From Schmidtea nova (lineage: Eukaryota), in contig CM097884.1 of the NCBI GenBank assembly GCA_044892505.1, positions 140,306,001 through 140,370,000 of the forward strand: 64,000 nt of DNA, in the 5' to 3' direction. A model generated the notes under the pieces. That model made no database searches. It saw nothing but the letters and a program-made list of their open reading frames with translations, and was not told the DNA's origin. Position 1 is the stretch's first letter, and every line of letters starts with the position of its first letter. Below, one piece after another: positions 4,635 through 27,425 of this stretch. The position numbers and the translations under genes are program-made.

Positions 4635-6190
4635 CACTAGATTTACCGCACCAGTCAAAATGACTGGTTGGTAATGATTAGGGTAAAAATTCTATATTAA
4701 AAAATATATATCAAAAAAACTAATGTCATGACTTTTATAGATATATGTATGTAGTTAATATTATGAATATTTTTATTTTTTAATTTTAATACTAATAAAA
4801 ATAATTGTGTTATACCTATTTATACCGACACCAGTCATTTTGACTGGCGCCATTATCAAAGCGGCCGACGACAATAAAAGCGTAACCGGCGACAATAAAC
4901 ATAAACATCTTTGATGCATCTGATATCAATATATATCAATATATATCAATATATATCAATATATATATATATATCAATATATCAATATATCAATATATCA
5001 ATATATCAATATATCAATATATCAATATANNNNNNNNNNNNNNNNNNNNNNNNNNNNNNNNNNNNNNNNNNNNNNNNNNNNNNNNNNNNNNNNNNNNNNN
5101 NNNNNNNNNNNNNNNNNNNNNNNNNNNNNNNNNNNNNNNNNNNNNNNNNNNNNNNNNNNNNNNNNNNNNNNNNNNNNNNNNNNNNNNNNNNNNNNNNNNN
5201 NNNNNGTTTACATTCGTAAAACTCGTACATGCAATAACAGTTTGATATTTTTTGCTATATTTTGCATTGAATTTCTGTCCTTCAAATTTGAGGTAGGAGA
5301 AATAAAAATTACCTTTTTTATCGATTATTAGCTGTTTAGTTTATTATTTTCACAATTAATTCTATTTTTAGCATCGATCCCACAAAATGGATAAGCCGAA
5401 GAAGAGTGCCACATTATTGAGAAAAATAAATAACATTCCTATGGAATATTCTGATGTTGAAGACGATGACCTGTATGATAGTGAAGGTGAACTACTGAAT
5501 TGTGAAAGTGGACCATATGGTGAAAATAATATAGCTTTTGAGACCATAGATAGTAGTGCTTTTATCGATGAAGAGTTTATCGACGAGTCTACTGATACAG
5601 AAAGAGATAGTGATTATGAAAATATTTTGAATATTCGTAAAAGAAAAAGAAACATACAACTCTCAAGCTCTGAGGACGAAAATGATGAAGATAAACTAGA
5701 CGATCATAAGGAAATTGCAACAGATGGTACAATTTGGGAAAAATTACAAGCTGGAAATAGTAGTGGAAGAAAACCAATTCAATCTATTTTCAAAGATGTA
5801 TCCGGTCCTACAGGATATGCAAAAAGAAATATTATGAAAGGTGTAGTTAGCACCGCATTTTCACTGATAATAGATGACTCAACTGTAGAATATATAAGAA
5901 CTTGTACAGAAGAAGAAGCCTCTCGAGTCTTAGGAGATACATGGCTACTTACAAAATCAAAATTGCTAGCTTTCATTAGGATTCTATATGTTCGTGGGGC
6001 ATATGAAGCCAGAAACTTGAAGGCTTGTTATTTATGGAATAAGCAATGGGGACCAAGTTTTTTTAGTGCAGTGATGAGTAGAAAAGATTTTACTGAAATT
6101 TTGCGATTTATTCGTTTTGATAAGAAAAGTATAAGTCAAAGATTAAAAACCGATAAATTCGCGTTGATATCAACGGTATGGAACAAATTA
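4635..6190 (+). mobile_element. 5' portion of a piggyBac element
   Basis: TTAA (4631-4634) followed by TIR CACTAGATTTACCG, repeated CCAGTCAAAATGACTGG subterminal palindromes, then a transposase ORF. No right TIR seen. Confidence 0.8.
4915..5029. repeat. (ATATCAAT)n-like microsatellite running into an N run
   Basis: Direct reading of the sequence. Confidence 0.9.
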
Positions 6191-6292
6191 TTAAAATGGC
6201 TGTCTACAAAGAATATTTCACAGGAAGTAATTCAGCAGTATGGAAACATTTCCTACGCGATGAGAAAGGTGAGACTGCAATGTGTAAGGTGA
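5387..6292 (+). pseudogene. Truncated piggyBac (PGBD-like) transposase
   Basis: Acidic N-terminus plus FIRILYVRG...LW...MSRKDFTEILRFIRFD...DKFALISTVWNK. The ORF breaks off before the DDD catalytic core. Confidence 0.85.
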
Positions 6293-9580: not shown

Positions 9581-9934
9581 TTAGAAATAGTTAAATATAA
9601 ATTTGTATAACTTTAACGAAATTTGTTTAAATAATACTAGGGTTTTTGTGAAGATTTGTGTGAAAAAAGAAAAATTGTATTTTCGGATTTAATCAAAGGT
9701 GTAGAAGTTTTGGATAATTAGAATTGATGAAACATTGATTCCTTGTGTAGTGCCTTAGATTAAGTATTCAATTTTATAAATTTCTTTTATTTTTTAAATT
9801 AATTAATTTAATTTAGTAATTATTAAATGGAGTAAAAATTAATAGACTTGTTTTAATATTTACATATTTTCATATTCACGCTTATCACAAACAAGAAATG
9901 CAAACAGCTAACAATGATACGATATTCATACAAT

Positions 9935-9948
9935 TGGTGTCAGAAGTG
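9935..9948 (+). promoter_or_regulatory. Primer-binding site complementary to the tRNA-Leu 3' end
   Basis: TGGTGTCAGAAGTG, 2 nt after the LTR-terminal CA. Confidence 0.85.
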
Positions 9949-10126
9949 ACAAACGTAAGCTTTTTGAATTTATTATGTAAATATTTAAATTCGTCTAATT
10001 GCTCCATTTATATTAATAATAATTTTAATAATATATTCAATAAAAATTTTAATAATTATTTTAATAATTTATTCATACTCCGATAACCAAAACTACAACA
10101 GTTTCCTCTACCTGTTCACAACATCC

Positions 10127-10627
10127 ATGCCCAACAAACTCATAGATCTACAGAACGAATCGTCACTAGAAGAAATCAACCTCACTCGCAATCATTTTTT
10201 GAGTCTTGATACAAATCCATCTTTCACATATTCTAGATCATACAAACCGTATATACCACAATCACTTTCCTTTGCCACCCACGCAAGGATGAAGACAATT
10301 GACTCATCAACGCTCAAACCTAGATACAAAGGCCCATTCCGCATCATAGAACTATACAAAAACACAGCGAAACTAGAAATTGATAACAATCACGTTATGG
10401 TCAACCTATCAAGAATAAAACCATCCTTTTGCACACTTGAGTATGATGAACGACCAAATTACCAAATCATGAAAGAAGATCATATAGATGAAGACATTAT
10501 AGAAGACACGGAACAACTGAAGACCCTTACAGAAACGCCCAATAGACTCCCTCAAGACAACCCGCCATTCTCTTCTAGACGAACACGTAAACTCCCTCAA
10601 TATCTCTCCGATTATAACATTCAGTGA
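10127..10627 (+). pseudogene. Gypsy integrase C-terminal (GPY/F) remnant
   Basis: LKPRYKGPFRII...VNLSRIKP motif and basic RRTRKLPQYLSDY tail just before the PPT. Confidence 0.8.
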
Positions 10628-10734
10628 CTCACCCAACACCCAAATCCACTTTGTAGCTTAGAGACGCTGTGCGTACTTCGGCGGGGCTATTGTAGTGCCT
10701 TAGGTTAAGTATTCAATATAAGTAATTAATAAAC

Positions 10735-13566
10735 GGGTATTATTATTTCGTCACTTAAATTACAAACATGGTCACTTATTTTTTATTAAATTTGTCTCTT
10801 TAATTACATAAATGTGCTCGTCATTTAATTAAATTGTCTATTAAATTTATTGAATGATCACTAGGTCTAAATGGTCTCTTTAATTAAAAAAGTTGTCTCT
10901 TAATTTGTTTATTTAGTCACTTATTTTAATTTAATGGTCTAATTTTGTGATTAACGATCACTTATTAATTTTGTCTTACAATATCCATTAGATAATTATT
11001 TTGAAAGTGAGCAAACGTAGAAAACGTTAGTTGGCCAAATTAAACTCAAAAATGATCCTGCTGCAAGTCGACGAATATCACAGTGAGGAATCAGGTGAAG
11101 AAGATGCAGAACAACAACAACCACCAACACATAAGAAGCGGAAGACACGTTTCTACGATTGCTTATGTACATTCAATAGCCACGATACAGCCAAAGAATG
11201 GATCCAGACGCAAAAATTCTGGAGCTTCCTCAAGAGAGAGAACAAAGGAAACACCGAAGTCTACAGATGTAACCATGTCAAACGAAGAGGACCACAATGT
11301 GCATCCGTTTTGAAGATCAACTACTCTGACACCGACAAGACAGTTCAAGCCATGCTATCCGCTGATAAGCATGATCATGAATTGATCAACAAAAGAGCAG
11401 CTGCAGAAGGTAAAGCGAAAATCGGAATTGATCCTCGAGCTAAAGAGTTGATCGGCGAGTACTACCAGTTAAAAGTGCGGAAACCCAACCAAATTTTGGC
11501 TAACTTGATAAAAGCGAAAAAAACTGAGCCATCAATTACTATTCCATCGGCAAGACAGCTCTATGGTTATCTCGCAAATACTTATTCAACTGGATCTACG
11601 ATGGAATTTGGAGAATTGTCTAAATTTTGCAAGGAGAATTCCAATGTCCCTTCTGAAACTGAACTTAACAAGCCGTTTGTTGTCAGTTATCAAATAAATG
11701 TCGATTCGGAGCTTGAAGATGCAGAGACCTTCCCGGAAAATTTACTCATCAACATTGAAGAAAAATGTTTCAGAATTTTCATATCAACAAGACGGCTTTT
11801 AAAAATATCTGTCGATGCTAAAACCATTCAAGCAGATTCAACTTACAAGCTGATCTGGAATGGCTTTCCTGTACTTATTGTTGGTAGAAGTGACATCAAC
11901 AAGGTTTTCCATCCAATCGGTATCTCCATCTGTACAAATGAAAATCAATTTGATTATGAATTTCTCTTTCTTTCAATTCAAATCGGTATAGAACGAACTG
12001 GCCTGACAAAATTAAATTCAGAAGAATTAACGTTATTAGCTGATGCTGCTGCGGCTATAACATGTGGATACAAAGCAGTTTTTTCTGTTCCAGGTCAACC
12101 AATCAGAAGAGGTATGTGTTGGTTTCGCATGAGAAAGGCTGTTCGACAGAAAGCATCCATTCTGAACAACACCGAATTAATTGATCAATTAATGGAGGAC
12201 ATTAATATTCTTCAATTAAGTGTATCGGATCAGCTATTTGACACTGCATCATCTCTATTTTTAATTAAATGGAGTAAGTGTGCCAATCAAAACATGCCCG
12301 ACTTTCTCGCATACTTCAAGGACCAATGTCTCTGTGAATTACGTGGATGGTACGAAGGATTTAATCCGGATGGTCCAAGCACAAACAACGGTTTGGAATC
12401 AGTGAACGGAACACTAAAAAAAGATCACACTTTCAGAAGACGTGAGCCTTTGTCCGAGTTCATCAAAACAGTACAAGAAATCGTTGTCGCCTGGTGTGTG
12501 GATCGCGATCCAACCATCCAATCTGAAAAGCATATCAAGCTGTTTCGAAAAGAACATTTCATACATGTTCCAGCTTACAGAATTGCTTACAACTGGGTCA
12601 AGAAGGGAAGAAGGACAATGAAGGATGAAGCAAGCGATCCTAAGTTTGTTCATTTCTACACAAATGCTGGCGGTGTTGAAGAGGACGAGAAAACATTCAA
12701 GGAAACAATCGAGTGTTTAAAGGAAGTCTTGAATAAACCTAATTTTTTGGACTTTGAGCAATATCACTCTATCTTGTTCAAAACCTGGCGAACTTCGTTC
12801 CCTAAGCCTCTCGAAAGTAAAACTGCTCTACTTGCTAGGTGCACTTGTCCAAAATTTTTTAAGGATCACATGTGCAAACACGTCCTTGGAATCGCTGCAC
12901 TGAACAAACTCATGAAAATTCCCAATGAGGCAAAGTCGCTACTGATTGGCAAGAAGGCTGCTCGTGGACGCCCAGCTAAAGCTGTCAAAGCTTTAGCTTT
13001 TCAGCCGGCGGATCGAGTTCAAGAACAAGAACCAACTACTTCAGCTGCGTCATCAACTGTTGCCTCAAAGGGTCCAACTTCTTCTGCTTCGTCAACTGTC
13101 ACGAAAAAGAAAGTCGGACGACCACCAAAAGAAAAAATTCCTGTTGTACCAGTGGCGCCAAGTCAAAGTACAAAACGCAAAGCATCACTGGCTAGAGGTG
13201 CAACAAAACGCCATAAAAATTAAAATAAATCATCTTCTGTTTATTTTACTCTAAAATGTTAACTTAAATTTTGTGGTTATGGTTTGTCATTTTTCTTATT
13301 AAAATTTTTTTTACATAAAAATTCAATTAAATTTCAAATAAACATTTTGAACAGCTTACATTTTTCTTATTTAAGTGACTATTAAAGTAATTTAAGTGAC
13401 CATATTTGGTAAATTTAAGTGCTCACTTATATTTAATTTTGAGTGATCAAGTTAGTAATTTAAGTGACCAAATCTGTAATTGAAGTGATCGCTTATAATT
13501 TATTAAAGTGATCAAAAATATTAAGTGATCATTTATGTAATTTAAGTGACCGGATAATCACCACCC
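10735..13566 (+). mobile_element. MULE/Mutator DNA transposon
   Basis: Imperfect TIRs (GGGT...GTCACTTAAATTACA at both ends), many GTCACTTA/TAAGTGAC subterminal repeats, 9-10 bp TSD attaataaa(c)/attattaaa(t) matching the empty site in the 5' LTR. Confidence 0.88.
11052..13223 (+). CDS. MULE transposase with SWIM finger and C-terminal AT-hooks
   Basis: Uninterrupted ORF, first ATG at 11052. N-terminal YRC...C...HDH zinc domain, ADSTYK, LADAAAAI, CWFR (normally CxxH), TNNGLESVN, SWIM CTC...CKH, GRP AT-hooks. Confidence 0.92.
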   Translation: MILLQVDEYHSEESGEEDAEQQQPPTHKKRKTRFYDCLCTFNSHDTAKEWIQTQKFWSFLKRENKGNTEVYRCNHVKRRGPQCASVLKINYSDTDKTVQAMLSADKHDHELINKRAAAEGKAKIGIDPRAKELIGEYYQLKVRKPNQILANLIKAKKTEPSITIPSARQLYGYLANTYSTGSTMEFGELSKFCKENSNVPSETELNKPFVVSYQINVDSELEDAETFPENLLINIEEKCFRIFISTRRLLKISVDAKTIQADSTYKLIWNGFPVLIVGRSDINKVFHPIGISICTNENQFDYEFLFLSIQIGIERTGLTKLNSEELTLLADAAAAITCGYKAVFSVPGQPIRRGMCWFRMRKAVRQKASILNNTELIDQLMEDINILQLSVSDQLFDTASSLFLIKWSKCANQNMPDFLAYFKDQCLCELRGWYEGFNPDGPSTNNGLESVNGTLKKDHTFRRREPLSEFIKTVQEIVVAWCVDRDPTIQSEKHIKLFRKEHFIHVPAYRIAYNWVKKGRRTMKDEASDPKFVHFYTNAGGVEEDEKTFKETIECLKEVLNKPNFLDFEQYHSILFKTWRTSFPKPLESKTALLARCTCPKFFKDHMCKHVLGIAALNKLMKIPNEAKSLLIGKKAARGRPAKAVKALAFQPADRVQEQEPTTSAASSTVASKGPTSSASSTVTKKKVGRPPKEKIPVVPVAPSQSTKRKASLARGATKRHKN

Positions 13567-13744
13567 ATTATTAAATGGAGTAAAAATTAATAGACTTGTT
13601 TTAATATTTCCATATTTTCATATTCACGCTTATCACAAACAAAAAATGCAAACAGCCAACAATGATTCGATATTCCTACACCTTGTATCTCAATACAATC
13701 AAATGAATTCATTTTTATTTCATACTTCTGATACCAATATATAA

Positions 13745-13980: not shown

Positions 13981-14814
13981 AATTGGTTTAAATTTTACCT
14001 TTTCATTCCTTTTATTTGATTTTAAAGTGTCCTGGATTTCAGATTTGTTTCCTTGGTTATGAGGCTTTAGCATTAATAAAATTTTCAAATTTTTCTTTCA
14101 ATGTTAGTTGAAGATCAGCTCCCTTATCACCGAGGAGTAACAATGTTAGCATATTTTATTGTTATTATATTGGCAATATTAAATTACTATTATCATATAT
14201 TATTATTATTTATATCATTATTATTAAAATTAACGGGACCGCCCAATCTTTCGAATCTTATATTACGTCGCCGATCCTATAGGTTCTTGTCGATATTTGT
14301 AAGGGTTTCTTCTTTCACATTCCACTTTAGACTAGCCCACAACACGACCATATCGAAAACTATCCGCATTAATCTGCAAACGCTTATCGTACGAGGGACC
14401 GACATATATTCCCTATAATGGCGCAATATTAAGGAATCAGGACTCACTTTCAAGTTCTGGCGTATGTTCGGATTTCTTTCTATTCTGTCACGTACCATTG
14501 TATGGCGGTGCACCATCAAGTATAGACGATGACAATGATAAGAAGCCCAAACCTTTGCCTAAAAAGCCAAGAAATGTTCGATGAGCTGCTTCTTCTGACA
14601 ATAATTCGAGACAAAATATTAACTGTTCATTCTTTTTAGATGAGAACCAAACCCCATCAACTTGGTTGCTCACACTCGTAGCCCTGTTGGAAAGTTGCTG
14701 CGTTACATCTTCAAGAGATAAATTCTATAGAATACTATCTCTCATCCTACATGAACATTTAGGTCGCCTTTCTGCCGTTATTCGCCGCACAACACAGAAA
14801 ACCTTTTTAACACT

Positions 14815-17800
14815 ACTACAACTGGTGTCAGCAAAATATGCGACAGTACTATTCGTTGCAGCCATTATAACTGGTGTCAGAACTGGCAACTTTCAGTAAC
14901 AAAATATGACACAGTACCATTCGTTGCAGCCACTATAACTGGTGTCAGAACTGGCAACTTTCAGTAACAAAATATGACACAGTACCATTCGTTGCAGCCA
15001 CTATAACTGGTGTCAGAACTGGCAACTTTTAGTAACAAAATATGCGACAGTACCGTTCTTTGCAGCCATTATAACTGGTGTCAGAACTGGCAACTTTCAG
15101 TAACAAAATATGACACAGTACCATTCGTTGCAGCCACTATAACTGGTGTCAGAACTGGCAACTTTCAGTAACAAAATATGACACAGTACCATTCGTTGCA
15201 GCCACTATAACTGGTGTCAGAACTGGCAACTTTTAGTAACAAAATATGCGACAGTACCGTTCTTTGCAGCCATTATAACTGGTGTCAGAACTGGCAACTT
15301 TCAGTAACAAAATATGACACAGTACCATTCGTTGCAGCCACTATAACTGGTGTCAGAACTGACGACTTTCAGCAGCAAAATATGCGACAGTGCCATTCGT
15401 TGCAGCCACTATAACTGGTGTCAGAACTGACAACTTTCAGTAACAAAATATGACAGTACCATTCGTTGCAGCCACTACAATTGGTGTCAGAACTGGCAAC
15501 TTTCAGTAACAAAATATGCGACAGAACCATTCGTTGCAGCCACTATAACTGGTGTCAGAACTGACAACTTTCAGTAACAAAATATGACAGTACCATTCGT
15601 TGCAGCCACTACAATTGGTGTCAGAACTGGCAACTTTCAGTAACAAAATATGACACAGTACCATTCGTTGCAGCCACTACAATTGGTGTCAGAACTGGCA
15701 ACTATCAGCAACAAAATATGCGACAGTACCATTCGTTGCAGCCACTACAATTGGTGTCAGAACTGGCAACTTTCAGCAACAAAATATGCGACAGTACCAT
15801 TCGTTGCAGCCACTACAACTGGTGTCAGAACTGACGACTTTCAGCAGCAAAATATGCGACAGTACCATTCGTTGCAGCCACTATAACTGGTGTCAGAACT
15901 GACGACTTTCAGCAGCAAAATATGCGACAGTACCATTCGTTGCAGCCACTATAACTGGTGTCAGAACTGACGACTTTCAGTAACAAAATATGACACAGTA
16001 CCATTCGTTGCAGCCACTATAACTGGTGTCAGAACTGGCAACTTTTAGTAACAAAATATGCGACAGTACCGTTCTTTGCAGCCATTATAACTGGTGTCAG
16101 AACTGGCAACTTTCAGTAACAAAATATGACACAGTACCATTCGTTGCAGCCACTATAACTGGTGTCAGAACTGGCAACTTTCAGTAACAAAATATGACAC
16201 AGTACCATTCGTTGCAGCCACTATAACTGGTGTCAGAACTGGCAACTTTTAGTAACAAAATATGCGACAGTACCGTTCTTTGCAGCCATTATAACTGGTG
16301 TCAGAACTGGCAACTTTCAGTAACAAAATATGACACAGTACCATTCGTTGCAGCCACTATAACTGGTGTCAGAACTGACGACTTTCAGCAGCAAAATATG
16401 CGACAGTGCCATTCGTTGCAGCCACTATAACTGGTGTCAGAACTGACAACTTTCAGTAACAAAATATGACAGTACCATTCGTTGCAGCCACTACAATTGG
16501 TGTCAGAACTGGCAACTTTCAGTAACAAAATATGCGACAGAACCATTCGTTGCAGCCACTATAACTGGTGTCAGAACTGACAACTTTCAGTAACAAAATA
16601 TGACAGTACCATTCGTTGCAGCCACTACAATTGGTGTCAGAACTGGCAACTTTCAGTAACAAAATATGACACAGTACCATTCGTTGCAGCCACTACAATT
16701 GGTGTCAGAACTGGCAACTATCAGCAACAAAATATGCGACAGTACCATTCGTTGCAGCCACTACAATTGGTGTCAGAACTGGCAACTTTCAGCAACAAAA
16801 TATGCGACAGTACCATTCGTTGCAGCCACTACAACTGGTGTCAGAACTGACGACTTTCAGCAGCAAAATATGCGACAGTACCATTCGTTGCAGCCACTAT
16901 AACTGGTGTCAGAACTGACGACTTTCAGCAGCAAAATATGCGACAGTACCATTCGTTGCAGCCACTATAACTGGTGTCAGAACTGACAACTTTCAGCAGC
17001 AAAATATTCGACAGAAACATTCGTTGCAACCACTACAACTGGTGTCAGAACTGACAACTTTCAGCAGCAAAATATGCGACAGAAACATTCGTTGCAACCA
17101 CTACAACTGGTGTCAGAACTGACAACTTTCAGCAGCAAAATATGCGACAGAAACATTCGTTGCAACCACTACAACTGGTGTCAGAACTGACAACTTTCAG
17201 CAGCAAAATATGCGACAGAAACATTCGTTGCAGCCACTAATTAGTGTCAGAACTGACAACTTTAAGTAACAAAATATGCGACAGTACCATTCGTTGCAAC
17301 CACTACAACTGGTGTCAGAACTGACAACTTTCAGCAGCAAAATATTCGACAGAAACATTCGTTGCAACCACTACAACTGGTGTCAGAACTGACAACTTTC
17401 AGCAGCAAAATATGCGACAGAAACATTCGTTGCAGCCACTAATTAGTGTCAGAACTGACAACTTTAAGTAACAAAATATGCGACAGTACCATTCGTTGCA
17501 ACCACTACAACTGGTGTCAGAACTGACAACTTTCAGCAGCAAAATATTCGACAGAAACATTCGTTGCAACCACTACAACTGGTGTCAGAACTGACAACTT
17601 TCAGCAGCAAAAATGCGACAGAAACATTCGTTGCAACCACTACAACTGGTGTCAGAACTGACAACTTTCAGCAGCAAAATATGCGACAGAAACATTCGTT
17701 GCAACCACTACAACTGGTGTCAGAACTGACAACTTTCAGCAGCAAAATATGCGACAGAAACATTCGTTGCAGCCACTATAACTGGTGTCAGAACTGACAA

Positions 17801-17815
17801 CTTTCAGCAGCAAAA
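14815..17815 (+). repeat. 68-bp tandem array (about 43 units), each unit with TGGTGTCAGAA
   Basis: Unit actggtgtcagaactggcaactttcagtaacaaaatatgacacagtaccattcgttgcagccactata; successive starts at 14870 and 14938. No unique spacers. Confidence 0.95.
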
Positions 17816-20800
17816 CATGTTACAGGAAAGTAATATAAGAGAATTTTGGAATAAAAAAGCCTTTTCAACAATAAAAAGCAATATCCGGATTATGTATGGT
17901 TGGAAAAATAGTCTTCATAATACGGTATTATCAACTTTAGAAATAAAGTGTAGATCTAAAAATTTCTATAATCGATTTCCAGAATCAGTTGAGAAATACT
18001 CAACGTAAAGAGACTTAAGTTGTATTGACAGAATTTTGAACTCGTTAATTTGAAGAAATATTCTTGCATCATGCTTTGAGGGAAACGAATTTTTTGCAAA
18101 TCTCAGTCTTAACTAATTATAAATTATTTAAACAAACTTTTTTTATTTTATACTACTCATATTAAATTTTAAATATATTAAAAATAATTTTAATTTTATT
18201 TAATCACTAGCTTATAACCCCTTTTGAAGAACAATCTAATGTCAGTAATTGGAAATGAGAACATACGCGTTACAATATATACTTAAATGAGATGAAGAAT
18301 CTAACGTTGAACTTAGTATAATGTAATTAGGATCAAGTGACGTGCTCCAGGTGCAAATGAATTTCGAGGACGTTCCTTTCATTTTGTATACTCTATTTGT
18401 ACCACGGAGATGGCGCTCATCAAATGGAGTTAACAGCGAAGATTATGTCCGTCAGAGGAATAATGTCGGAAGCCAAACATGACCCTTGGGAATAGGCACC
18501 AATTAAACCGGAATGAAAATTTTCTTTCTGGAAAAAGATGGAGAATTTCCAGGTCAGTACTGTGGATCAAGGCTGATGATTTTATACCTTTTCTAAATTC
18601 CAGACAATGTGACGGCTCATCTTTTTGAGACGACGTCCAGAGCGAAGACCCAAATTTAATCTCAACTCTGATCAATTCAGAGAAGCATCTTGGATCCCGT
18701 GAATCGAACTAAATGTACATTTTCGTAGAAATCTTGGCTATTAGTAAAATAAAGTATATTTAGCATATCGTAATCGTTTTTATCGGCATTTCACTATTTT
18801 ATTGCGTTAGTTTGTTTTGAGATTGTGTCGATAATCCAGTGGATGTGATTCAAATCAAATAGGTTCTGAATGATAAGAGTATTGTAATAAACTTCAAGTA
18901 GCGGATAGTTATAACGAGTCTAGGGTGTAATATCTCTTGACGTCAGTAATGTTTTCGAATAGTTATTAATAGTTTCAAAGTATGAAACGATGAGAGTTGG
19001 CAGATAGCTGGACTTTGACTGTATTTTAGTGCATAAATTTCTTTATATAAGAAACCAAAATTTAACGGAAAAATCTGTCTATATGTAAATTTTCGAAATT
19101 GTTATGGAATGTCGAATTGTAACTAAAGATGATATATACAGTGATACCATATGAAATTGAGGTTAATATGATGTAGTCAGATACATAAGATGATAGGAAA
19201 TGCAATAAATAATGAAATACTCTCGAATATGAACGAAATTTAAAGTTACAGGCATTTGATTGACCGAAACAAACCCGAAGGATGTGCAACAGGTAGTAAT
19301 TCTGGAAACAGAGATCACATGTCTATACAGTACCAATATAATTATCAAGAGAGGACCTTTGTGATTTTTTGAATGACGTTAAGGAATGGAGACCCTAGTA
19401 CTTTACAACATTAATAAGAAAATATTTGATAAATACATTAAAATATTTGAAAAGTAAAATATGTTGTTTGAATGCACCAATTACACACACATTTGCCCAC
19501 GCTATATATACAAATGCATGATTCCTATGCTTATCGAAAAACTTTTCCTTTTTAGACAATTTTTCTAGAAAGATAAAGTGATTTTGTCAATTAATTTTTA
19601 AAGTTTTGGTTAATTTTTGTTGTTGATATTATTGATAGATTTTTCCGTTTATTAAATAACATATTTCAATAAATAACTGAGGTGTCATTGTAGTGAATAC
19701 AAACATTTATAGTAGCTCGCGAATATTCGGTTCGTAATAGTAATAACAGATCTAGAGATAGAGCTCATGTCGGATATCATGAAATTTTAATGAGCATGCC
19801 AAATTTTAAAAATTGTAAGAAGTGCTTTCGAGAAATAATTTCAAAAGCTTTTAATGATAATTAAAATAAATGGGCTTGTTCAAACACCCATATTAAATTA
19901 TGTGAGAAAATAATGTCTGCTAATTTCTTTATTTCTGAAGCATTTTTAGGTCAACGACACCTAAAGATTTTAAATTAAAAATAATTTTTAAAATTTCGAA
20001 AAAAATACAACTATATTTTTTATTTCAAACTATTAACAAATATATTTTGAAAATATTAAGTTGTAAATATCATAAATGATCAATATTAAAATTAGATTTT
20101 TTATAAAAAAATTGTTTTTATTCTTTTTTTGCACCAGTTTTATTTAAATAAAAAGTAGAGAAAATGGTTATATTAAAATTTAAATATAAACTAGTTTAAA
20201 AACAAAAGATAGTGTTGTTTGTAAATAATAAACTTTTAAAATATGCAAACACAAAAATAGTCATTGTCGAGACGAACGACGGGCCCACGAAGAACTACTA
20301 TGCGGTCCACTAGGTCTATAGAGAAAGATTCATAAAAGTAAATTGGAAAAAAATTGGGAAAAAATTGAAAAAAATATGGGTTAATTGTCATAAACTTTAC
20401 ATCATTAACACTAGTATAAGATCATAACATCAACGGTAATAAAGTAATTCGGCACTCATCACTTAAAGCCTCCTATACTTACAAGCCACCCTGTGACATC
20501 AGAACTAATTCCATATACACGTTTTAAATAACGAAATCAAAACACCTGAGGTTTCATTATGTAAAGGATTACACAGACTAAAACAATCGCAATAGAATTT
20601 AGGTGGTTCTGTCTTCGTCAAACAAGAACCGCCTTGTTGTGTTTATACAATACAATTATACATATGTATTAATCGAGTATACAGAGTCTGCTAACACTAA
20701 TGATCGCTACACATCACAAGTCTTCATTATTAACAGGTTTTAGTTGGTTTAGTCACATAGTTACTTTGTTTCTATTGAATAACTGAATGGTCGCGGAATT

Positions 20801-20931: not shown

Positions 20932-21590
20932 ATGGCATCAAGTCTCAGTGAAAAAACTATATTTTTGGAAAATAGAGCCCTTTAAGATAAATAAACGCAT
21001 AAATATTTCTTTACCGAATATAACTCCAAATATAAATCCTTATTCTTCGTTTGCTCTGAAATTGTCGATGTAAAGAAAAAATTTAATATAAAGAGGCATT
21101 TTTAAACAAAACATGCAAATAATGATAGACTTAATTAAGCACAAAGAGTAAACAAAGTTGAGAACCTGAAAAACAAATCTCTGTTAGTTATAATAAATAA
21201 AGCGAGTTATGTTATTTTGCAAAAAGCAAAAAAAATATAAAACCATATTTAGATGGAGAATTTATCAAAGAATTTATATCTGTAGTTGTAATATAAGTCA
21301 TACCAAAAAAAGAATATTTTCAATTCAGTTTCTCTATCGCGACGAACCATGACGAAGCGGGTTAATGTAAAAATACATTAAGAGTTCGAATATTAATCGA
21401 TTAGTTCGAACGAAAGAACCAATATTAGTGACTTGGCTCAATTGTCAATATTTATTTGAGAAATGTATCAGAATATTAGCAGCTGCGTAGGACTGCTATC
21501 GTTAAATACAATGGAAAGTACAACTACTGGAGCCAACATTATTGAAGGCGTAGTTCTCTCAAAGAAAAAAATTTATCTTGATATTAGATC
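20932..21590 (+). pseudogene. hAT (SPIN/Buster, GTF2IRD2-like) transposase 5' remnant
   Basis: Broken frames give ENRA...YFF...KKKFNIKRHF..KH, DGEFIKE, SLSRRTMTKRV, DLAQLSIFI and LLSLNTMESTTTGANI. Confidence 0.75.
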
Positions 21591-21696
21591 AATGTTAATG
21601 CTGTATAATTTTCTTATTATTATTATTATTATTGTTTATGTTGTATTATCATGCTTGTTATTATCGCGGTGGGATTCGTGGGGTCCTTGTGGACAC

Positions 21697-22537
21697 ATGA
21701 TAACCCCCCTTATTTTCGGCAATTATGCCTTGAAGAGAAACGATCGAAAAAAGGCTCATGATGATATAACCAAACTACTGACCATATTTGTTAAGAGGGG
21801 GACAAGAATAGAAGCAATTGCACAGAAGATGGATAAGGATGTTTGGACGAAGTATCGGGCTCTAATCAGAGAGTATGACGTGCAGCAGACTCTCAGGAAA
21901 GGCGCAGGTTCCGATGAGATAACCCTTGGGAGACTTGCCTGCGCCTTTCCGGAAATGACTGCTATCATATTCTCAAAATTAGGGTCCAGGTATTCGACTG
22001 ATGTTGTTCCTGCGTGCTTCCACTTTCTTGGAGCTGCTAGTCTATTTCCGACTGTGATAGCAGAAGATCATAGATTGCATTTGAACTTTTGTAAGGACTT
22101 TGACAGGATTATCAATAGCACTCCGGATCCCCAGAAAGTAGAACAATTTTGGACTATTAGCCATTCTTCAAAACTTTTCACTGAAGCACAAATGGAGACC
22201 ATCATGAAGAAACTCTGATATATACATGTACTTCCCACATGGCACCGTTTTAAGACATCTCCCAGCAGTTAGGGCTAAGTCGATAGAAAAGAGAGCTGCA
22301 GCAGATTTGGAGGACTCTAGTGACATTGGTGATGAAACTAGAGCTGCAGGAAAATGGCCTTCCACAAGTAGAGGTAAAAGAGCAAGAAAGTGATTGTAAC
22401 TTGGGGCTGATCTGGATGTGTTTTTTATTGTAGTTACACCTGTTGTTATGTTAATATTGGACTATAAAAAAGAGTTTGTACTTTTGCCTTTTATTTGTTT
22501 ATATGATTATTTGTTGACTTGTCGCGCAGCTTTGTGT
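21697..22537 (+). other. Endogenous viral element: Phenuiviridae-like (tenui/phlebo) nucleoprotein plus 3' UTR
   Basis: DDITKLLTIFVKRGTR...KM...LIREY...DEITLGRLACAFP...F..AASL parallels the phlebo/tenuivirus N motifs RGNK..KM, LI..Y and D.ITLSRVAAA. GC-richer than the flanks and ends in CTTTGTGT (22530-22537). Confidence 0.85.
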
Positions 22538-25808: not shown

Positions 25809-27425
25809 TACTAACAAGTTTGTGTCAAAGTATTTTTTAAAAATGCATATATATGATTATTGTACATAATTACAAAATTATTTCTGAAAACTTTTTATGT
25901 AATTTAATCTTACTTATTATATAAACAGTTCTTTTCAACCTTTAAATGAGTCTCAAAATATTAAATGATATTAAATAATAATATTTCTTGGATACATAAT
26001 ATATAATTATATAACCACAAATACATAATATATAATTATATAACCACGAATTCATTGATTGTTTTAAGTCAAATGAAATATTTTACCAACAACTTTTAAA
26101 AAATAAAAATTAAATTTGACAAATGTTTATTAATAATTTAATTTACTACGAATAAACAGAGTTTGACGAGGATTATTTTATAATCGAAAATTTTCTCACT
26201 TAATAAAATTGTTTTTACAGCAAAGGCATATTTTCTTATTTTCTTACTTATTTAAACAGCCATTTATAATTGATAATTACAATCACAAAATAGGATAAAT
26301 ATAATAAATTGTTTTGAAAAAAATTTTAGCATTCATATGAAGTGTAAATTTAATGTAGTTATAATACCTTAAGTCTATAAATTTTATACCATTAATGAAT
26401 GAATTTAATCTTTCAATACTGTAAGTCAAATAGTATTTCATAATTACACTTGTCGGTAAAACCTGCTACTGCGATAATAATTAAGTGGAATTCTATAAAA
26501 TAGCCATTTTTAAGATATTGTTTAAGTTCATTTAAAAATTAAAACACAATGCCAAAACAACTTAAATTAAAAACTGAAGACTTTATGTGCTAGTAAGGGA
26601 TAATGGTGCGTAATAGTTAAGGATTAATATCGAAATCATTCCAATAGACTTATTTGAAAGACAGAAAAACAAGCTTTTAAATCATTTTGAATAAGCAAAA
26701 CAACTTTTTGCCCCGTAAGAAAAATTATAATAAAACTTGTCATTTAATTTCCTTATTTTTGTAAATTTATCAGGAGACTAAAATTCGATTCAATATTTGT
26801 CAAAAGAGATAGGAAGATAGGGCATGAAACTTATAAGCACATACTTAATACAATATATTATTCTTTCCCATATTATATTTTCATACCTTTTAAGATATAT
26901 TAATCCATAACTTTTAATAAAATGTGTTAATAAAATGTGTTTATAAAAATTGTAATAGAACTGTATAAAATATGCGGGCGAAAATAACTTAATTTAAGTA
27001 AAGGAATAACTAATATTTTCAAATGAATAGTTATTTTTAAATTTTAAAGTTCCAAAAAAATTCTAATATTTAAACATGAGTTCCATTTTCACTAAGTTTG
27101 CTATTCTTCTCACATTTAAATATAAGTAAAAATATTGAATAAATAAATATTTTTTAACTTTATTATTTAATCGATTTCTTTTTTCAGTTATGAGGAATTC
27201 TAATCAGCTATCCATACATCGTAAACAAATCACGAAAATTTAAGAAATTGAACAAAATTCTTATTCATTAGCCAATTAGATATTTTATGCTTCACCACAG
27301 GGAAATTATATATTGGTTATAATTGGATAAAGAAATATAAAATTTTATATAAAACCTTAAATTTGCCTATAATTATTAGTTATTGAAAGAATAAAAAATT
27401 GTTATTAGTGTACACTTGATAATCA

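What the first reader, a model, noticed from the sequence alone, without database searches (positions are those of the whole stretch)
14815..17815. 3-kb satellite built from an LTR-end/tRNA-Leu PBS junction
Seen: every 68-bp unit contains TA(C/T)AA(C/T)TGGTGTCAGAACTG(A/G)CAA, nearly identical to the real LTR/PBS junction at 9929-9953 (TACAATTGGTGTCAGAAGTGACAA). The unit can be parsed as PBS, an A-rich spacer and a 31-bp TG...CA segment. Known: TGGTGTCAGAA is complementary to the tRNA-Leu 3' end, and 3' tRNA fragments target PBSs. Inference: about 43 tandem priming sites could be an ultra-small tandem TRIM, an amplified retrotransposon leader, or, if transcribed, a sponge or target for Leu 3'-tRFs.
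Basis: partly seen in the sequence, partly recalled or inferred. Interest (0 to 1): 0.7.

Follow-up and report, generated by a model that had tools for sequence, protein, structure and literature searches.

The report
Minisatellite born from retrotransposon priming site
This 3-kb array is 44 head-to-tail copies of a 68-base piece of a decayed retrotransposon family that happens to include its tRNA priming site; it is likely a functionless minisatellite of a kind already described in maize, not a new mobile element.

Summary
The array is real: 68-bp unit, 44 copies, with the tandem joint also in raw-data contigs. Its source is not the neighbouring element at 9929-9953 but a dispersed, decayed Ty3/gypsy family, with 39 single-unit matches elsewhere. 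The unit is 15 nt of LTR end, a 2-nt spacer, an 11-nt tRNA-Leu PBS, 23 nt of leader and 17 nt of the predicted gag start, cut at a 2-bp GT microhomology. Host tRNA-Leu(CAA) pairs over 11 nt. The PBS is not significantly more conserved than the rest (1/11 vs 19/68 variable columns, P=0.12). The array holds 42 of 7,157 genomic copies of the 11-mer and grew by stepwise duplication. Closest precedent: maize CRM1TR/CRM4TR (PMC3648361). This scan noted a related LTR-end+PBS tandem module in another genome. Expression is untested. Verdict: TE-derived minisatellite, low interest.

The parts
14812..17819 (+). Tandem array of a 68-bp unit, 44 seams, 45 PBS-like sites, 16 unit types among 43 full units
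14923..14937 (+). Example unit, part 1: last 15 nt of the source family's LTR; the first 2 nt (GT) are the seam microhomology
14938..14950 (+). Example unit, part 2: 2-nt spacer and 11-nt PBS (14940-14950) complementary to host tRNA-Leu(CAA) 3' end; position 12 mismatches the tRNA
14951..14973 (+).
14974..14990 (+). Example unit, part 4: first 17 nt of the family's first ORF (predicted gag start; ATG at this place in 24 of 34 dispersed loci)
14957..16987 (+). Exact internal duplication, period 1016 bp (15 units), 1015 identical positions
14812..14870 (+). Truncated first unit: starts within the LTR-end part and has a 19-bp deletion just after the PBS start
14110..14811 (+). Left flank: 702-bp internal gag fragment of a different, abundant Ty3/gypsy family, cut exactly at the array start; its continuation is absent from the window
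   Evidence: junction bridged by one contig of run X1
17840..18347 (+). Right flank: unrelated old dispersed repeat (70-78% identity to 9 other places); no source-family sequence
9746..13681 (+). Neighbouring internally deleted LTR element of a sister family (PBS 9935-9948, integrase C-terminal remnant, PPT, 3' LTR split by a MULE, 5-bp TSD); not the source of the array

Best explanation
The array is a single-locus minisatellite whose 68-bp unit is the LTR-end/PBS/leader/first-codons stretch of a dispersed, decayed Ty3/gypsy family, and it likely arose by an accidental microhomology-joined duplication and likely has no function of its own. Shown: unit identity and anatomy, a seam unique to this locus, GT at both cut points in the source, and growth in layers (2- and 3-unit repeats, then an exact 15-unit duplication). 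[quoted passage not shown] Unequal exchange or slippage then expanded it, and later deletions removed the parent element on both sides. The PBSs ride along passively.
For: 39 of 60 matches in the genome search lie outside the array, each spanning at most one unit (40 of 77 candidates scored). In the 20 fetched first, the unit is preceded by LTR sequence (at least the LTR end) and followed by a shared ORF. Domain order PR(weak)-RT-RH-IN in L015; CHCC knuckles in 6 of 34 loci; LTR pairs in 4 of 34, with a perfect 5-bp TSD in L073. Array vs 30 dispersed copies: mean 13.6%, minimum 5.9% difference; array vs neighbour junction at least 48.5%. GT on both sides of the cut in 20 of 30 copies. Seam pattern: 44 of 44 genomic matches in this array. 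All 19 variable columns have minor alleles shared by 2 or more units, 17 of 19 after removing the duplicated block. L073 is a natural LTR-leader~LTR deletion of this family. PBS not significantly conserved. Close tandem pairs of the PBS 11-mer (6 other loci plus this one, of 7,157 copies) are no more frequent than pairs of a control LTR-start 11-mer (6 of 4,830).
Against: No parent-element sequence survives on either side, so the in-place origin needs further deletions; insertion of a ready-made concatemer is not excluded. The microhomology is only 2 bp (3 bp in 3 of 30 copies). A post-hoc 14-nt window over the PBS has 1 variable column, P=0.046, and only 6 of 68 11-column windows are as invariant as the PBS, a weak hint of constraint. 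Spacings of 51-57 nt were not searched genome-wide, and pair searches were exact-match only. Lack of function is inferred, not shown.
Confidence: 0.85

Rival explanations
1. A 68-nt circle (DNA microcircle, or RNA circle primed by tRNA-Leu and copied by a retrotransposon RT) was amplified by rolling circle, and the concatemer was captured at a double-strand break, with later duplications on top.
For: Both array ends fall inside units, no parent flank survives, and the left-flank gag is cut exactly at the array start with no TSD. One capture event would explain this. The seam has a short microhomology.
Against: Variants are shared in ordered blocks, which shows that most of today's length came from stepwise duplication. 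For tRNA priming the right end should stop at the PBS or carry tRNA-type bases; it runs on through element-type leader to the ORF start. Other PBS tandems in this genome that look tRNA-copied (L076, L078, 18-nt tRNA-type site) differ from this array.
Confidence: 0.08
2. The array is transcribed and acts as a decoy or target for tRNA-Leu(CAA) 3' fragments, or for the primer itself, and is kept for that reason.
For: 42 exact 11-nt sites in 3 kb; host tRNA-Leu(CAA) genes match; slight deficit of variation over the PBS. 3' tRNA fragments do target PBSs in mammals (PMC7472051, passages).
Against: Pairing covers the fragment's 3' 11 nt plus 2-3 nt after a mismatch: -19.0 to -21.5 kcal/mol against -33.4 (18-mer) and -40.4 (22-mer) for a full-length PBS in the same genome. 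The 5' seed is broken (18-mer) or largely unpaired (22-mer), and PMC7472051 (passages) says seed pairing is required and mismatches relieve repression. The PBS is predicted mostly base-paired in array RNA. The array holds 0.6% of genomic copies of the 11-mer. The conservation test is not significant (P=0.12).
Confidence: 0.04
3. An ultra-small tandem TRIM: each unit is a mobile mini-element with a 31-bp terminal repeat and a PBS.
For: A PBS 2 nt after a CA/TA end in each unit; tandem TRIM arrays exist in animals (PMC6934838, passages).
Against: The supposed terminal repeat is a seam between gag start and LTR end, found only here. No PPT (longest purine run 7 nt), no TSD, and no dispersed or solo copies of the joined form.
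Confidence: 0.01
4. Assembly artefact: the array, or much of its length, is not in the genome.
For: An exact 1016-bp duplication could be an over-expansion; the right junction was not checked against reads.
Against: The tandem joint appears in contigs of 4 of 4 runs and one contig bridges the left junction; 16 distinct unit types occur in ordered patterns.
Confidence: 0.02

Closest known systems
Maize CRM1TR and CRM4TR (Sharma, Wolfgruber, Presting 2013, PMC3648361; passages and section 15 read)
   Same: Tandem repeats made entirely of the parent retrotransposon's LTR end plus downstream UTR, joined UTR-to-LTR, confined to one or two loci; proposed to start by illegitimate recombination at short homologies.
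   Different: Monomers there are about 700-820 nt and about 1370 nt and lie at (peri)centromeres; some are transcribed. Here the unit is 68 bp with only 15 nt of LTR, reaches into the first ORF, carries no LTR promoter region, and the parent is a CHCC-gag, tRNA-Leu-primed family. The paper's text has no occurrence of 'PBS' or 'primer binding'.
TE-derived mini/satellites in general, e.g. Sobo, PisTR-A, MaLR-derived Ms6-hm (listed in PMC9659126 and PMC12628747; passages read)
   Same: A fragment of an LTR element is tandemised; any part of a TE can serve.
   Different: In the passages read, none is centred on the PBS.
Tandem-array TRIMs (biv-TRIM, PMC6934838; passages read)
   Same: Head-to-tail repeats in which a repeat end is followed by an internal domain.
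   Different: TRIMs have 100-250-bp terminal direct repeats, PBS and PPT, and disperse; none of TDR, PPT, TSD or dispersal is present here.
CsRn1-like Ty3/gypsy elements (PMC2582038; passages read), for the parent family
   Same: CHCC gag signature CX2HX9CX3C; PR-RT-RH-IN order.
   Different: CsRn1-like elements have a tRNA-Trp PBS and 4-bp TSD; this family has a tRNA-Leu PBS and a 5-bp TSD.

Membership tests
LTR-UTR-derived tandem repeat (CRM1TR/CRM4TR type) | Monomer entirely derived from parent LTR end plus downstream leader | tested here: met
   68 of 68 positions map to one contiguous stretch of the dispersed family, minimum 5.9% difference
LTR-UTR-derived tandem repeat (CRM1TR/CRM4TR type) | Novel leader-to-LTR seam confined to one or few loci | tested here: met
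   44 of 44 exact seam-pattern matches are in this array
LTR-UTR-derived tandem repeat (CRM1TR/CRM4TR type) | Origin from an LTR-UTR~LTR deletion seed | tested here: inconclusive
   The family forms such deletions (L073), but parent flanks are lost here and the right end stops in the ORF part, not at an LTR end
LTR-UTR-derived tandem repeat (CRM1TR/CRM4TR type) | (Peri)centromeric position, transcription | not testable with these tools
   No centromere map; no RNA run listed
TRIM / tandem-array TRIM | Terminal direct repeats of 100-250 bp | tested here: not met
   Only 15 nt of a ~200-380-bp LTR per unit
TRIM / tandem-array TRIM | PBS just after the 5' repeat | tested here: met
   11-nt match to host tRNA-Leu(CAA), 2 nt after the LTR end
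TRIM / tandem-array TRIM | Polypurine tract before the 3' repeat | tested here: not met
   Longest purine run in the array is 7 nt; the family's own PPT lies kilobases downstream
TRIM / tandem-array TRIM | Dispersed copies with TSD | tested here: not met
   No seam outside the array; flanks are unrelated, no TSD
Ty3/gypsy (parent family) | LTR-PBS-gag-PR-RT-RH-IN-PPT-LTR order | tested here: met
   RVT_1 2.9e-15, RT_RNaseH 5.2e-17, rve 9.9e-09 in order in L015; protease only E=0.09; PPT in 3 and LTR pair in 4 of 34 loci
CsRn1 clade (parent family) | CHCC gag signature | tested here: met
   6 of 34 loci
CsRn1 clade (parent family) | tRNA-Trp PBS and 4-bp TSD | tested here: not met
   tRNA-Leu PBS; 5-bp TSD perfect in L073, 4 of 5 in L071, 3 of 5 in L016
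CsRn1 clade (parent family) | RT phylogeny | not tested
   No reference set laid; no tree built
3'-tRF target or sponge | Near-full pairing including the seed | tested here: not met
   11 nt + mismatch + 2-3 nt; seed broken or unpaired
3'-tRF target or sponge | Expressed RNA bound by Argonaute/tRF | not testable with these tools
   No RNA holder listed

The most novel reading that the evidence does not exclude
The array is a transcribed polymer of 40-odd tRNA-Leu priming sites that titrates the primer or its 3' fragments for the thousands of Leu-primed retroelements in this genome, or was seeded by tRNA-primed rolling-circle copying of a 68-nt circle: a PBS-only selfish or decoy repeat.
Probability: 0.05. 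Interest if true: 0.7.

Novelty: new member of a known kind. Interest (0 to 1): 0.2.

Why it matters
As it stands it is a clean miniature example of a satellite being born from a retrotransposon's LTR/leader junction: source family, seam and duplication layers can all be read at single-base resolution, at a tenth to a twentieth of the monomer size of the maize precedent. It changes no general picture. It would matter more if the array were transcribed, since about 7,000 sites in this genome share the same tRNA-Leu priming motif and a tandem decoy could then modulate many families at once; nothing found here supports that.

Tried and rejected
Coding repeat: 68 is not a multiple of 3, stops occur in all six frames of the stretch translated, and indels of 1-2 nt occur; rejected. 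Neighbouring element as source: rejected. Left-flank gag family as source: its leader differs and it shares nothing else with the window array. tRNA genes in the window: none. ARAGORN without the intron option found no gene in 10 of 10 loci L045-L054; 9 of these were printed and are long PBSs, not genes. With introns it found the host gene in L060/L061 but labelled it Lys(ctt); I read it as intron-containing Leu(CAA) from the CAA anticodon and long variable arm (identification from my own knowledge). PBS hot-spot for duplication: not enriched over a control 11-mer (one control motif only). Four dispersed loci (L055, L057, L059, L068: other families or indels) were dropped from the divergence and microhomology counts, leaving 30 of 34. 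Expression: no RNA holder listed; this says nothing either way. The right junction was not checked against reads. An 8-nt inverted match between the seam and the LTR just upstream of the unit could point to fold-back template switching; seen by eye, not tested. Five literature searches listed no minisatellite centred on a PBS; I saw listings only for most hits, so this is not proof of absence. No supplements were read.

Full report
Observation. The window holds a tandem array at about 14812-17819: period 68, 44.1 copies, 93% matches. It has 42 exact and 3 one-mismatch copies of TGGTGTCAGAA, against 0.72 expected by chance in the window. The 43 full units fall into 16 types; six are 66 bp, one is 67 bp, and the first unit is truncated to 49 bp. 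Contigs from 4 of 4 public runs (3 samples, 1 study, possibly including the source sample) show a joint that goes back 68 bases, and one contig bridges the left junction. The right junction was not checked against reads.

Source. A search of the 1.25-Gb own genome with three units gave 60 matches: 21 in the array and 39 elsewhere, each of the latter spanning at most one unit (40 of 77 candidates scored). I fetched 34 such loci (20, 14). In the first 20 the unit is preceded by LTR sequence and followed by a shared Gln/Asn/Pro-rich frame. An ATG sits 23 nt after the PBS in 24 of 34 loci. In L015 the downstream frames match protease (weak, E=0.09), RVT_1, RNase H and integrase in that order. CHCC knuckles occur in 6 of 34 loci. 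An LTR start is seen in 10 of 34, an LTR pair in 4, and a 5-bp TSD is perfect in L073. The parent is therefore a decayed Ty3/gypsy family. It shares the CHCC signature of CsRn1-like elements but not their tRNA-Trp PBS or 4-bp TSD (PMC2582038, passages), so I do not file it there.

Anatomy. The unit reads 15 nt LTR end + 2 nt spacer + 11 nt PBS + 23 nt leader + 17 nt of the predicted gag start = 68. Array units differ from 30 dispersed copies by 13.6% on average and 5.9% at best; 4 of the 34 loci were dropped as other families or indel-bearing. The dispersed copies differ from each other by 11.5% and array units among themselves by 8.8%. The neighbouring element's junction differs from every unit at 48.5% or more over 68 bp; it belongs to a sister family that shares only the LTR end and PBS. 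In the parent, both cut points carry GT in 20 of 30 copies and GTT in 3. The seam pattern has 44 matches in the genome, all in this array.

Flanks. To the left is a 702-bp gag fragment of another abundant family, cut exactly at 14811; its continuation is not in the window. To the right is an unrelated old repeat. With the array masked, 6 of 7 parent-family elements find nothing in the window; the seventh (L017) hits only the neighbour's integrase tail and one place near 27,400 that I did not examine. There is no TSD around the array.

tRNA match. Loci L060 and L061 hold tandem tRNA clusters with an intron-containing gene. I read it as Leu(CAA) from its anticodon and long variable arm; ARAGORN mislabelled it (the reading is from my own knowledge). 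Its 3' end plus CCA pairs with the array site over 11 nt, mismatches at 12, then pairs 2-3 more: -19.0 to -21.5 kcal/mol, against -25.3 for the neighbour's PBS and -33.4/-40.4 for a full-length PBS at L047. The mismatch is the parent family's normal state.

Is the PBS kept by selection? One of 11 PBS columns varies against 19 of 68 overall (expected 3.1, P=0.12). A post-hoc 14-nt window gives P=0.046, and 6 of 68 windows of 11 are as invariant. In 20 dispersed copies the PBS has 7 mismatches in 220 sites against 56 in 1180 elsewhere (P=0.38). This is a slight, non-significant deficit. The 11-mer occurs 7,157 times in the genome, so the array holds 0.6% of sites. The seed end of 18- and 22-nt 3' fragments pairs poorly or not at all, and the site is predicted mostly base-paired in array RNA. 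PMC7472051 (passages) reports that seed pairing is required and that mismatches relieve repression.

How it formed. Shown: unit types are ordered in 2- and 3-unit repeats and one exact 1016-bp (15-unit) duplication. All 19 variable columns have minor alleles in two or more units, 17 of 19 after removing the duplicated block. That is stepwise growth, not a single amplification followed by scattered mutation. Inferred: the first seam came from a microhomology join at GT, either a local 68-bp duplication or a deletion into the 3' LTR end as proposed for maize CRM1TR/CRM4TR (PMC3648361, section 15). L073 shows that this family makes LTR-leader~LTR deletions. Loss of both parent flanks needs further deletions, so capture of a preformed concatemer stays possible. 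A tRNA-primed version predicts a right end at the PBS or tRNA-type bases there; the end instead runs through element-type leader to the ORF start.

Recurrence. Exact pairs of the PBS 11-mer 20-50 and 58-119 nt apart occur at 6 other loci (51-57 nt not searched). These are LTR-end+PBS modules of other families, with units of 40, 56, 86, 95, 102 and 118 bp, the last in 4 copies. A control LTR-start 11-mer gives 6 pairs among 4,830 copies against 7 loci among 7,157, so there is no sign of a PBS-specific hot spot on this single control.

Comparison and verdict. It works like the maize LTR-UTR tandem repeats, whose monomers are about 700-820 and 1370 nt, and fits the broad class of TE-derived satellites (PMC9659126, PMC12628747; passages). 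It fails TRIM membership on terminal repeats, PPT, TSD and dispersal (definition from PMC6934838, passages). Five searches listed no PBS-centred minisatellite of this size, but most hits were seen as listings only. New member of a known kind; interest 0.2. The decoy or rolling-circle reading is left at about 5% because expression could not be tested.

Noticed in passing
window 21460-22218 (+): Open frame of 252 aa matching Tenui_N (tenuivirus/phlebovirus nucleocapsid, E=3e-11): likely an endogenous viral element.
   Followed up: no
window ~10733-13565 (+): Mutator-like element with a 730-aa open frame (weak MULE and SWIM hits), imperfect TIRs and a near-perfect 9-bp TSD, inserted in the neighbouring element's 3' LTR.
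   Followed up: partly
L047:1498-1550, L050, L051 (G000 C1): LTR junctions whose PBS copies about 49 nt of the tRNA-Leu(CAA) 3' half, well past the usual 18 nt, including the CCA end; suggests RT read-through of the primer fixed in some families.
   Followed up: no
L076:1500-2150 (G000:C2:29.41 Mb): Short non-coding LTR element whose LTRs each end in an extra 40-bp module of tRNA-type 18-nt PBS plus a repeat of the LTR end; L078 and L075 are similar. Looks like strong-stop DNA re-annealed to the LTR end.
   Followed up: partly
L080:1351-1825 (G000:C1:265.47 Mb): Independent 4 x 118-bp tandem of LTR end + PBS + leader from another family: a younger, smaller version of the same event.
   Followed up: partly
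L060, L061 (G000:C2:300.5 Mb onward): Large tandem array of a ~900-bp tRNA Leu/Gln/Gly cluster; the pattern has 816 genomic matches, the listed ones mostly here.
   Followed up: partly
window 13726-13736 (-): PBS-like 11-mer with one mismatch on the minus strand, 45 bp from the neighbouring element's 3' end; no LTR identified.
   Followed up: no
window 55394-57313 and 60882-61911: Two other tandem arrays (about 152/302/456-bp periods; A-rich 119/148-bp periods).
   Followed up: no
window 5372-6292 (+): piggyBac-like transposase fragment (DDE_Tnp_1_7, E=5e-08).
   Followed up: no
L064:4404, L065 (left-flank family): The PBS 11-mer also lies inside a long open frame upstream of gag in this family; whether it is the true PBS or a relic was not resolved.
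   Followed up: no
G000, control: The seam pattern read backwards has 273 genomic matches, so that control belongs to some other repeat and is not a chance baseline.
   Followed up: no
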